Source: Eledone cirrhosa (lineage: Eukaryota). From it: a DNA stretch of 64,000 nt. Below the pieces are notes generated by a model, which had not been told where the DNA came from, searched no databases, and was given only the letters and a program-made list of their open reading frames with translations. The position numbers and the translations under genes were made by a program. The stretch lies in NCBI GenBank assembly GCA_964016885.1, contig OZ024750.1, forward strand, positions 17,670,001-17,734,000, written 5' to 3'. Position 1 is the first letter of the stretch. Each line of letters starts with the position of its first letter. Of this stretch, positions 2,237-57,250 are shown one piece after another.

Positions 2237-6830
<4,594 letters not shown>

Positions 6831-16004: not shown

Positions 16005-16111
16005 ACATATATATACAGGGTGTCCCCAAAATGTATACACACTTTGTGTGCATGATTATATATATATATATATATATATATAGTTATGTAATAAACAACA
16101 TAAGGCAATTA

Positions 16112-16172
16112 TTTCATTTACCAGTGGTTTCTTAAAAGCAAAAAAATGTTGCTTTCAATCATCAGAATGAAA
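16112..16172 (-). ncRNA. Type I hammerhead ribozyme
   Basis: tttcatt CTGATGA ttgaaagcaa(7 nt)ttgcttttaa GAAA cc act gg TA aatgaaa: 7-bp stem I, 10-bp stem II, short stem III, GUA site. Confidence 0.85.
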
Positions 16173-16247
16173 AAATCCTGGTGTATTTATTGGCGTTGGA
16201 TTTTAAAAACCTTTTAAAATCCAACGCCAATAAATACACCAGGATTT

Positions 16248-16308
16248 TTTCATTCTGATGATTGAAAGCAAAATTTTTTTGATTTTGAGAAACCACTGGT
16301 AAATGAAA
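16248..16308 (+). ncRNA. Type I hammerhead ribozyme (mirror copy)
   Basis: Same fold in the right arm; stem II carries a few mismatches. Confidence 0.75.
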
Positions 16309-16440
16309 TAATTGCCTTATGTTGTTTATTACATAACTATTAAGCTCTGTTACCTACATAGAGCACTCTTTTTCCCCTGGACTTTTCCGACGGAATTACT
16401 TCATTTACACATATATATATATATATATATATATAATAAT

Positions 16441-53530: not shown

Positions 53531-53865
<335 letters not shown>

Positions 53866-54293: not shown

Positions 54294-54454
54294 TAATTAT
54301 TTCTACTTTTGGCACAAGGCCAGCAATTATTCCAGTGTATTACTGGTACTTTATTTTATCGACCCCGTAAGGATGAAAGGCAAAGTTAACCTCAGCACGA
54401 TTTCAACTCAGACCATAAAGGGCCGTAACTCTTTGCTGCAAAGCATGGCGTCCA
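54294..54454 (-). mobile_element. SINE family B in Rab21 intron
   Basis: Same motifs; 3' fragments also at 44283-44376, 46177-46287, 55370-55530. Confidence 0.85.
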
Positions 54455-54711: not shown

Positions 54712-55859
54712 TCTAAAATCTGTCTTAATCCATAAGGTTCATTTGGCTGGTGCTTACTCCAGTTTTATGGCATGAAGTGACAGAGTACAAGACACCCCTG
54801 GACAGGACACCAGTCCATCGCAGTATATATATATGTATATATTTGTCTCTCTATATATATATGGATTGAAAATTAAATTTACTGCTCACATCTATGAAGG
54901 TTTAGCTCTAGGGAGGTATCTCTCTCAGTTGATTTAATGATGGGAGCCCCAGTCCTTCCATGAAAACAAAATTTGAAATGAACTGTCTTGCTCAAGTACA
55001 CAACATGCCACTTAGACCTTCAATGGAACCCATGATCTTATGATTATGAGTATAACACCATGAACATATGCCTTTACAATATGTGAACTTGGAGCTATAA
55101 TGAAAGACTCTTGCCCTAGTCAGCACAGAGTGTAATTGAACCTGTAGTCACATGATTGTGAAGTACTCCTTAACCACATGGCAATACCTGCACTTATTTT
55201 TCTCTCTTCATCCCGTGATCCCTGATGGTGTCATAGGGGCGCCGTAGTCACATACGGTGCTTTTTGGGGGTATTTTAAGCCTGGCAGAGCCCATCCTACA
55301 CCAGGTCTGAACACAGCAGATTTCTTCCAGAGAAGGATAGAAAAAAAATGAGAAAGAGATATAGAGAAAGAATTAATCCCAGTACTAGACTGGTACTTTT
55401 TATATCAATCTCAAAAGGATGAACAGCAAAGTCGACCTCAGCGGGATTAGAACTCAGAGAGCAGAGTGCTGGAATGAATACTGTAAATCGTTCTATCCGA
55501 TGTTCTAATGACTCTGCCAATTCATCAACTAAACTGCTCTTATGGAAGCTATGCAGAAACTTTATGGCATGATTTGTTTCAATGCAAACATGACCTGTCT
55601 GAGCAATAAGATAATTTGAAACTGGCCTTAAAAATACTACCACTAGCTACAAATAGGATCTTCCAATTCATGATGGTTACAAAAAGATAGAAAAAACAAT
55701 AGAAACATTACCAGTCTGAGAAAAAAGACATTTTAAAACTGATCTTTAAAAAACTACCATGGTTAGAGGTGAAACAGAATTATTTGACTGTTCTTTGTCT
55801 GTCCTCACCCCCTTTTTTTAGTTTTATTTTCTGTCTTGTTTTTGTTTACACACACATAC

Positions 55860-55924
<65 letters not shown>

Positions 55925-55931
<7 letters not shown>

Positions 55932-56230
55932 GTGAGGTTTTTTTTACAAATTGAAAAATAACCGAGGTGTCCAACACGAGTGAAAGTATAAAGAAAAAGA
56001 GATGAAATCGAAAATGCAACTGGAGTCTTATTTTTTTTTTAAATATATATATTTATTTGGTTCCTTTACCAGTTTCGCAGTTCTTCTGCTTTTCAAAAGG
56101 TGAGTTGAGATGGAGGGTCTGTGGTTTTTCTCACATCAGATGTGAGAAAAACCACAGTAAAGGAACCAAATAAATATATATATTTTTTTTTAAAATAAGA
56201 CTCCAGTTGCATTTTCGATTTCATCTCTTT

Positions 56231-56234
<4 letters not shown>
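55925..56234 (-). mobile_element. Fold-back hammerhead element in Rab21 intron
   Basis: Outer arms 55992-56069 and 56157-56234; inner perfect hairpin 56119-56157; (TA)n both sides. Confidence 0.8.
56063..56100 (-). ncRNA. Hammerhead ribozyme with U3-A8 core
   Basis: cctt TTGAAAA gcag aagaa ctgc GAAA ctgg TA aagg: perfect stems I and II, GUA site. Confidence 0.75.
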
Positions 56235-56281
<47 letters not shown>

Positions 56282-57190: not shown

Positions 57191-57250
57191 CCATAGAGAT
57201 AAATTCACTCGTTTACCACCAATGTTAATTTTTCTATTTAGACATGAGGC
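57191..57250 (-). CDS. RAB21: Rab21 small GTPase, first coding exon present in window (ASCLNRKINIGGKRVNLSLW)
   Basis: 60-nt phase 0/0 exon, tttgcAG acceptor and GTaagt donor; matches the Rab21 segment ASFLTKKLNIGGKRVNLAIW and joins in frame to the DTAGQE exon. Confidence 0.93.

What the first reader, a model, noticed from the sequence alone, without database searches (positions are those of the whole stretch)
56063..56100. U3-A8 compensatory hammerhead in the sense strand of a Rab21 intron
Seen: core TTGAAAA instead of CTGANGA, with perfect stem I (cctt/aagg), perfect stem II (gcag/ctgc) and a GUA site. It is on the same strand as Rab21, between exons 57191 and 53671. Established: C3-G8 form a Watson-Crick pair in the active hammerhead, and U3-A8 is a natural covariant. 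Inference: the double change argues for selection on catalysis in this family, and the ribozyme could nick Rab21 pre-mRNA. The surrounding 78-bp fold-back would sequester the 3' strand of stem I and might regulate this.
Basis: partly seen in the sequence, partly recalled or inferred. Interest (0 to 1): 0.75.

Follow-up and report, generated by a model that had tools for sequence, protein, structure and literature searches.

The report
Penelope retrotransposon hammerhead in Rab21 intron
This is a leftover end-piece of a young jumping gene that landed in a Rab21 intron; it carries an already described variant of the hammerhead self-cutting RNA, present at over 13,000 places in this genome, and this copy is predicted not to cut the Rab21 RNA by itself.

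Summary
The motif is real and as described. It is not a Rab21 feature. It is the hammerhead in the terminal repeat (pLTR) of a young Penelope-like retrotransposon (RT, Zn-finger linker, GIY-YIG), with at least 13,304 motif matches genome-wide. U3-A8 is the family state; no C3-G8 subfamily was found. U3-A8 hammerheads in Penelope-like elements are already published (Schistosoma Cercyon). Helix III is a 6-nt palindrome, so the motif is the dimer-dependent type. The 78-bp fold-back is the second, inverted pLTR arm of an ordinary head-to-head insertion into (TA)n. It is transcribed first and is predicted to mask the cleavage site fully (helix I probability 0.000; 11.6 kcal/mol penalty). A CpG change also weakens dimer pairing. 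Nicking of Rab21 pre-mRNA is therefore unlikely. One side result deserves follow-up: family copies starting exactly at the predicted scissile bond are about 7-fold more frequent than at one control position (14 of 30 versus 4 of 30 inspected). Most copies start about 30 nt after a TATA box. This may be a genomic footprint of occasional in vivo cleavage.

The parts
56063..56100 (-). Type I minimal hammerhead with U3-A8 core, 4-bp helices I and II, palindromic helix III; predicted scissile bond 56067/56066
56068..56073 (-). Helix III strand ACTGGT; the family has the perfect palindrome ACCGGT, so this copy carries a CpG-type C>T at 56071
   Evidence: self-duplex -3.2 vs -8.3 kcal/mol; C in 103 of 104 young arms
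55926..56137 (-). Long pLTR arm: from the probable transcription start (72 nt upstream of the scissile bond) through the hammerhead to the distal end, 141 nt after it
55926..55988 (-). 'Tail' of about 63 nt, present on the long arm only; in full-length elements it ends 28 nt before the ORF1 ATG
   Evidence: (27 of 30 loci have one long and one short arm)
56119..56157 (.). Central 19-bp perfect hairpin, the head-to-head junction (centre 56138)
56139..56234 (+). Short, inverted pLTR arm; lacks 50 nt (the second hammerhead from upstream of helix I to helix III) and resumes 2-3 nt before its scissile bond; forms the 78-bp fold-back
55865..55925 (.). (TA)n target flank, left
56235..56272 (.). (TA)n target flank, right
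57191..57250 (-). Rab21 exon upstream of the host intron
53564..53671 (-). Rab21 exon downstream of the 3,519-nt host intron

Best explanation
The motif is the U3-A8 hammerhead of a head-to-head pair of terminal repeats from a young, high-copy Penelope-like retrotransposon, inserted in a (TA)n tract of a Rab21 intron, and this copy likely does not cut Rab21 RNA. Shown: the family, its RT/GIY-YIG coding copies, the hammerhead about 205 nt upstream of ORF1, the two unequal arms and the (TA)n target. Inferred from the published Penelope mechanism: the element protein nicked both target strands and primed reverse transcription at two fixed sites near the 5' end of its RNA; each cDNA ran to the RNA's 5' end and the two were joined head to head. 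Inferred: in element RNA the hammerhead works only as a strand-swapped dimer through the palindromic helix III, probably protein-assisted, and cuts a small share of transcripts. Predicted: in Rab21 pre-mRNA the short arm is made first and pairs with G16.2, U16.1, A17 and helix I as they emerge, so no active fold forms.
For: Copy number: 6,506 plus 6,798 exact-pattern matches, reversed-pattern controls 0. Full-length structure: L033 has two direct pLTR hammerheads 4,915 nt apart flanking ORF1 and RT-EN frames. L032 has an open 770-residue frame with RVT_1 (E 5e-7) and GIY-YIG (E 7.6e-5) and a CX4CxxC linker. 21 of 29 printed ORF1-bearing loci (30 fetched) have the hammerhead 204-213 nt upstream of the ATG, and 20 of 29 have a 400-401 aa ORF1. 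27 divergent pairs lie among the first 100 matches; 27 of 30 loci have one long and one short arm. 67 of 144 arms start at -75 to -66, about 30 nt after a TATAAAA box at -102. Folding: helix I probability 0.000 in the whole insertion, partner probabilities 0.74-1.0 for 56069-56063, 11.6 kcal/mol penalty. Double-hammerhead energy: -18.9 for the young family and -13.8 for this copy, against -12.8 for two monomers. Literature: PMC4209133 (U3-A8 in about 1,300 S. mansoni PLE motifs; single motif inactive; opposite-strand pairs), PMC11167929 (two RT start sites define the tail; hammerhead protein-assisted and dispensable for insertion in vitro), PMC3846280 and bioRxiv 2021.04.23.441226 (inverted pLTR, tail, microsatellite targets).
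Against: No cleavage assay and no RNA data for this copy. Equilibrium folding ignores proteins and kinetics. With 40-nt flanks, competing cofolds (about -40) are far more stable than the double hammerhead even for the family, so the model does not show that the family folds actively either. The clade (Neptune vs Nematis) was not placed on a tree. Whether the 50-nt gap arose at insertion or later is unresolved.
Confidence: 0.85

Rival explanations
1. One reading: this copy cleaves Rab21 pre-mRNA in cis and the fold-back is a regulatory switch.
For: Sense orientation; intact core with a Watson-Crick 3-8 pair; the isolated 38-mer forms helices I and II (probabilities about 0.8 and 0.93). An intronic ribozyme affecting its host gene is reported for CPEB3 (PMC10919898, listing and start of abstract only).
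Against: Helix III has 2 bp and a 2-nt loop. The only partner hammerhead in this insertion is missing, and was antisense anyway. The masking arm lies upstream in the transcript. Helix I probability falls to 0.085 with short flanks and 0.000 with the arm. The copy is about 1% from its nearest relatives, one of thousands, with the family's ordinary geometry. Single PLE minimal motifs showed no cleavage in PMC4209133.
Confidence: 0.05
2. The family hammerhead is vestigial: U3-A8 drifted in an AT-rich element that no longer needs cleavage.
For: Subfamilies with a mismatch in helix I (A2.4 in 31 of 31 'mid' and 32 of 32 'old' arms) and in helix II (no G10.4 in 32 of 32 'old' arms) amplified widely. 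Most copies start upstream of the hammerhead, so come from uncut RNA. Core conservation between subfamilies is not significant (1 of 11 differences in core; P(0) 0.31). PMC11167929 found cleavage dispensable for insertion in vitro.
Against: The 3-8 pair is Watson-Crick and neither single state has amplified (9 C3-A8 and 3 U3-G8 among 6,506). The two motif changes between 'old' and 'young' both create pairs, and dimer energy improves from -9.1 to -15.5 to -18.9. Junctions are in excess at the scissile bond.
Confidence: 0.25
3. The Rab21 intron is cut in trans by pairing with hammerheads of element transcripts, which would supply the catalytic strand.
For: The strand-swapped dimer of this copy with a family motif is -16.7 kcal/mol against -12.8 for two monomers. 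The family is abundant and has open reading frames.
Against: The substrate strand (56069-56063) is held in a 78-bp intramolecular duplex. Intron RNA is short-lived and published PLE hammerhead rates are low (PMC4209133, PMC6765202).
Confidence: 0.04
4. Any effect on Rab21 comes from the long RNA hairpin (editing, small-RNA production, slowed splicing) and not from catalysis. This is compatible with the best explanation.
For: The 266-nt region folds at -135.4 kcal/mol, z -24 against 200 shuffles. Long duplexes are ADAR and Dicer substrates (established knowledge, recalled).
Against: No RNA data. The insertion is over 1 kb from either splice site, and thousands of such hairpins exist genome-wide.
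Confidence: 0.15

Closest known systems
U3-A8 minimal hammerheads of Schistosoma mansoni Cercyon PLEs (Cervera and De la Pena 2014, PMC4209133; parts 1-2 of 4 read)
   Same: Type I hammerhead in the pLTR, U3-A8 core, 4-bp helix I, G10.1-C11.1 pair, palindromic helix III region, mostly solo copies, opposite-strand pairs, tandem pairs flanking an RT ORF.
   Different: Here helix II is 4 bp with no extra nucleotide after A9 (theirs 7-8 bp with one); helix III has a 2-nt palindromic insert as in the D. virilis-type variant; copies are very uniform and about ten times more numerous.
Neptune/Nematis-type EN+ Penelope-like elements (bioRxiv 2021.04.23.441226 and PMC3846280, passages read)
   Same: RT with C-terminal GIY-YIG, CX2-5CxxC linker, direct and inverted pLTRs, one-sided tail, palindrome at the inverted junction, microsatellite target.
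   Different: Tail about 63 nt against the typical 30-40; a separate 400-aa ORF1 overlapping the RT frame at a slippery heptamer; clade not placed by phylogeny.
Poseidon element of Anolis carolinensis, PAc (PMC11167929; passages and part 2 of the main text read)
   Same: Two fixed element ends that define a tail; AT-rich target; hammerhead near the ORF start; mostly uncut RNA used as template.
   Different: PAc has C3-G8 with the cut site inside the ORF; here U3-A8 with the site 169 nt upstream of the ATG. They saw no RNA-seq reads ending at the site; here genomic junctions are in excess there.
Animal non-LTR retrozymes (bioRxiv 10.64898/2026.07.22.740005; abstract and part 1 of Results read)
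   Same: Hammerhead-bearing, pLTR-related repeats, often in introns (about 43% of Xenopus copies).
   Different: Retrozymes are non-coding tandem units; this is a pLTR fragment of a coding element, in inverted form.
Natural U3-A8 core covariants (Perreault et al. 2011, PMC3088659; passages read)
   Same: The same compensatory 3-8 pair, reported as natural and earlier shown active in vitro.
   Different: Those passages do not concern this family or a dimer-dependent U3-A8 motif.

Membership tests
Type I hammerhead ribozyme | Core U4 G5 A6 N7 . A9, G12 A13 A14, A15.1-U16.1, H17 in type I order | tested here: met
Type I hammerhead ribozyme | Watson-Crick pair between positions 3 and 8 | tested here: met
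   U3-A8 in this copy; 100 of 100 listed matches and 99 of 100
Type I hammerhead ribozyme | Helices I and II with G10.1-C11.1 | tested here: met
   4 bp each in sequence; formed in the 38-mer, but helix I is not formed in intron context
Type I hammerhead ribozyme | Helix III able to close in a single molecule | tested here: not met
   2 bp with a 2-nt loop, below the folding model's minimum loop; expected for the dimer-dependent subtype
Type I hammerhead ribozyme | Match to an Rfam hammerhead model | tested here: not met
   none among 23 matches to E 10
Type I hammerhead ribozyme | Self-cleavage 3' of H17 | not testable with these tools
   indirect only: junction excess at the site in family copies
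Type I hammerhead ribozyme | Loop 1-loop 2 tertiary contact | not tested
   not described for PLE minimal motifs in the text read (PMC4209133)
PLE minimal (dimer-dependent) hammerhead | Palindromic helix III/loop 3 | tested here: met
   perfect 6-nt palindrome in the family; two U-G wobbles in this copy's homodimer
PLE minimal (dimer-dependent) hammerhead | Located in the pLTR of a Penelope-like element | tested here: met
PLE minimal (dimer-dependent) hammerhead | Extra nucleotide between 9 and 10.1 and long helix II (typical, not universal) | tested here: not met
   no extra nucleotide; 4-bp helix II
EN+ Penelope-like element, Neptune/Nematis type | RT followed by C-terminal GIY-YIG endonuclease | tested here: met
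   L032: RVT_1 and GIY-YIG above Pfam cut-offs
EN+ Penelope-like element, Neptune/Nematis type | CX2-5CxxC linker between RT and EN; CCHH motif in EN | tested here: met
   CX4CxxC and the Cys/His pairs read by eye in P0001; feature from bioRxiv 2021.04.23.441226
EN+ Penelope-like element, Neptune/Nematis type | Direct and inverted pLTRs with a one-sided tail | tested here: met
EN+ Penelope-like element, Neptune/Nematis type | RT phylogeny placing it in Neptune rather than Nematis | not tested
   no named reference sequences among the 120 homologues listed
Non-LTR retrozyme | Non-coding unit in head-to-tail tandem | tested here: not met
   the family encodes RT-EN and this copy is an inverted pair
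Host-adopted intronic ribozyme (CPEB3-like) | Single or few copies, able to fold alone | tested here: not met
   at least 13,304 motif matches; no monomer fold
Host-adopted intronic ribozyme (CPEB3-like) | Conserved at the orthologous intron position across species | not tested
   no orthologous locus or empty-site data were obtained
MITE / fold-back DNA transposon | Equal terminal inverted repeats and a fixed internal structure | tested here: not met
   unequal arms in 27 of 30 loci; pair spacings 65 to 4,192 nt; RT-coding partner

The most novel reading that the evidence does not exclude
The genome records in vivo cleavage by a Penelope hammerhead. cDNA arms of this family end where their template RNA began: mostly at the transcription start, and in about 1% of arms exactly at the hammerhead's scissile bond. 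The ratio of the two junction classes would measure the cut fraction of templates from DNA alone, for any PLE family and core variant. The youngest subfamily has also gained pairs in helices I and II, which would indicate selection on the fold. The short arm of the Rab21 copy may itself come from a cut RNA.
Probability: 0.45. Interest if true: 0.55.

Novelty: new member of a known kind. Interest (0 to 1): 0.27.

Why it matters
As filed it is an ordinary copy of a known kind of ribozyme-bearing retrotransposon and says little about Rab21. The family is useful material: the role of hammerheads in endonuclease-bearing Penelope elements is called unclear in the literature read, and the one in vitro system found cleavage dispensable and no RNA ends at the site. 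A junction excess at the scissile bond across more than 13,000 recent arms would give in vivo evidence of cleavage, and a DNA-only way to compare core variants.

Tried and rejected
1) C3-G8 ancestor within the family: L067 and L068 looked like older C3-G8 relatives. Rejected: none of L067's 29 nearest fetched relatives has C3-G8 (U3 throughout, position 8 mostly A). L067 is one decayed copy that my C3-G8 pattern selected, and L068's motif sits at a rearranged end whose other arm is U3-A8. 2) Fixed MITE-like unit (suggested): rejected, since that query contained the junction and unbiased matches show variable spacing. 3) Core conservation across subfamilies: inconclusive (26 of 193 arms dropped because they had been picked for rare core states; pattern-picked arms are biased towards intact motifs). 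4) Expression: no RNA holder listed. Contigs of four runs covered the pLTR and showed no listed difference at positions 3 or 8, but 34 rows were not shown. 5) Presence or absence of the insertion in other individuals or species: no result obtained. 6) Sister PLE families with C3-G8 by phylogeny: not done; the ORF1 search returned only this family (150 scored of 1,917 candidates). 7) The window's second hammerhead element: no similarity to the RT-EN protein within about 1.5 kb in 12 loci. 8) Scripts: crashed; the dimer energies had an off-by-one error and were replaced. My early note of a 48-nt gap was wrong; it is 50 nt. 9) Lunse et al. 2016 (PMC5785218) is not held and is known here only through the review PMC6765202. 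No supplementary files were read; those of PMC4209133 and Lunse et al. may list this family or U3-A8 dimer kinetics. 10) Literature searches that listed no paper describing this family or a junction excess at a PLE hammerhead site: (judged from listings and abstract starts).

Full report
OBSERVATION. The minus strand at 56100-56063 holds a type I hammerhead exactly as described: 4-bp helix I, core U3-U4-G5-A6-A7-A8-A9, 4-bp helix II closed by G10.1-C11.1, G12-A13-A14, and a GUA triplet with the predicted scissile bond at 56067/56066. It lies in a 3,519-nt intron between exons 57250-57191 and 53671-53564; the second exon matches human Rab-21 structures at 35 of 36 residues. Rfam does not detect it. 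A strict descriptor written after seeing the motif gave 1 match in the window and 0 in 200 Markov samples.

FAMILY. The window lies in a 3.0-Gb animal genome; repeats near it resemble octopus SINEs, which is recalled and untested. Exact patterns give 6,506 motifs with one helix I flank and 6,798 with another, reversed-pattern controls 0. These count arms, not insertions. Of the 6,506, 9 have C3 (all with A8) and 10 have a non-A at 8 (3 G, 4 C, 3 T; all with U3); none is C3-G8. G3 and A3 were not counted separately. Of the first 100 listed, 99 are U3-A8 and 1 is G3-A8. U3-A8 is therefore the family state.

THE ELEMENT. L033 has two direct repeats with hammerheads 4,915 nt apart, flanking ORF1 and a broken RT-EN frame. 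[quoted passage not shown] These mark a Neptune- or Nematis-type Penelope-like element (bioRxiv 2021.04.23.441226, passages). Among 30 ORF1-bearing loci (29 printed), 21 have the hammerhead 204-213 nt before the ATG and 20 have a 400-401 aa ORF1, so the family is young. 733 database proteins match at E 1e-50 or better, the best at 74%.

THE INSERTION FORM. Solo copies are two pLTR arms joined head to head within (TA)n. 27 divergent pairs lie among the first 100 matches, spaced 65 to 4,192 nt. 27 of 30 loci have one long and one short arm, ending 141 and 78 nt after the scissile bond. This is the published inverted pLTR plus tail form (PMC3846280, passages). In Anolis PAc the tail is the stretch between two internal RT start sites used from both nicked strands (PMC11167929). 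In 96 pattern-picked loci, 67 of 144 arms begin at -75 to -66, about 30 nt after a TATAAAA box; I infer this is the transcription start, where RT runs off its template. Because such insertions carry a hammerhead on each strand, sense orientation in a gene is uninformative. The window copy differs from close relatives by a few substitutions and a 50-nt gap that removes the second hammerhead. The 78-bp fold-back is what remains of that arm.

CAN THIS COPY CUT RAB21 RNA? Three predictions argue against it. First, it cannot close helix III alone; a single S. mansoni minimal motif showed no cleavage, and dimers only low cleavage (PMC4209133, parts 1-2 of 4; review passages). Second, the short arm precedes the motif in the pre-mRNA and pairs with 56069-56063 at probabilities 0.74-1.0; helix I probability is 0.000 and forcing the fold costs 11.6 kcal/mol. 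Third, the C>T at 56071 lowers the helix III self-duplex from -8.3 to -3.2 and the double hammerhead from -18.9 to -13.8 kcal/mol, against -12.8 for two monomers. These are equilibrium models without protein. With 40-nt flanks other cofolds win even for the family motif, consistent with the protein assistance reported for PAc.

IS THE DOUBLE CHANGE EVIDENCE OF SELECTION? Only weakly. U3-A8 is a known natural covariant (PMC3088659, passages) and was reported in about 1,300 Cercyon PLE motifs (PMC4209133). I found no C3-G8 sister subfamily. Of 12 genome-wide C3-G8 matches with a similar helix II, 2 belong to this family, and both are isolated: none of L067's 29 nearest fetched relatives is C3-G8. 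Among 167 arms kept (26 of 193 dropped as picked for rare states), three subfamilies appear. 'Old' (32 arms) has mismatches at 2.4/1.4 and 10.4/11.4, 'mid' (31) at 2.4/1.4 only, and 'young' (104, including the window's type) at neither. Divergences are 0.047, 0.045 and 0.020, and dimer energies -9.1, -15.5 and -18.9. This reads as repair of the fold if the order is right. It also shows that imperfect motifs amplified well. Conservation of the core itself is not significant (P(0 of 11 differences in core) 0.31; 1 observed, a CpG change).

A POSSIBLE FOOTPRINT OF CLEAVAGE. If arms end at template 5' ends, cut RNAs should leave arms starting at nucleotide 1.1. A pattern requiring a non-A before 1.1 gave 267 matches; 14 of the first 30 are junctions and 16 are point changes or one-base losses with the hammerhead upstream. 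The same design 6 nt upstream gave 125 matches, with 4 of 30 junctions by the script's rule, one of them really a small deletion. Fisher P is 0.010; extrapolated counts are about 125 and 17, ratio about 7 (interval 3-22). The point-change backgrounds are similar (142 and 108). Caveats: one control position; the test pattern is 6 nt shorter; the A-run at the site pools starts at +1 and +2 in AT-rich flanks (my estimate: about 1.3-fold inflation); two of the 14 are arms of one insertion, two resemble each other, and two are short duplications that slippage could make. In the 144-arm set only 2 arms start at 0 and 3 each at -6 and +13, though that set was picked for intact hammerheads and included the -6 control loci. 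The window's short arm resumes 2-3 nt before the site, so it may derive from a cut RNA or from a later deletion. PMC11167929 saw no RNA-seq ends at the PAc site; searches listed no report of such a genomic excess.

EARLIER NOTES. No earlier finding matched by sequence or place. AI notes on this genome mention other U3-A8 families with two fixed ends in TA repeats; I did not check those families.

VERDICT. A genuine but ordinary member of a known kind: a U3-A8, dimer-type pLTR hammerhead of a young Penelope-like element, in a Rab21 intron by chance and predicted to be masked. Interest 0.27. The junction excess is the part worth a whole-genome test.

Noticed in passing
window 16080-16345: A second, unrelated head-to-head element with two C3-G8 hammerheads (16169-16115 minus, 16251-16305 plus), long helix II and near-palindromic helix III; 899 first-look candidates, 40 scored at 97-100%; no RT-EN similarity within about 1.5 kb in 12 loci.
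   Followed up: partly
window 42803-42768 (minus): A single decayed minimal hammerhead with C3-G8 core and no helix III loop, typical of PLE minimal motifs.
   Followed up: no
L033 4840-4850 region; L155-L184: ORF1 (400 aa, no Pfam match in the L033 frame) overlaps the RT-EN frame at an in-frame T TTT TTA heptamer, a likely -1 frameshift site; a weak hairpin follows (-8.7 kcal/mol).
   Followed up: partly
L033 about 6220-6255: TATAAAA box 30 nt upstream of the main junction hot spot (67 of 144 arms at -75 to -66): probable pLTR promoter and start site.
   Followed up: partly
L074, L075, L070, L071, L076, L077, L083, L088, L091: At least four other C3-G8 hammerhead repeat families with palindromic helix III, one with a longer palindrome.
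   Followed up: no
L050 2220-3611: Fragments of a different RT plus GIY-YIG element next to a copy of this family.
   Followed up: no
L201, L221, L174: Junctions exactly at the scissile bond: a fold-back centred on it, an antisense arm jumping to it, and ORF2 sequence joined to it.
   Followed up: partly
window 54322-54421 and 55369-55458: Two copies of a SINE-like repeat in the same Rab21 intron; resemblance to octopus SINEs is recalled, not tested.
   Followed up: no
window 51736, 51682, 51235 (minus): Further Rab21 exons downstream; the first coding exon was not found in the window by the P-loop motif.
   Followed up: partly
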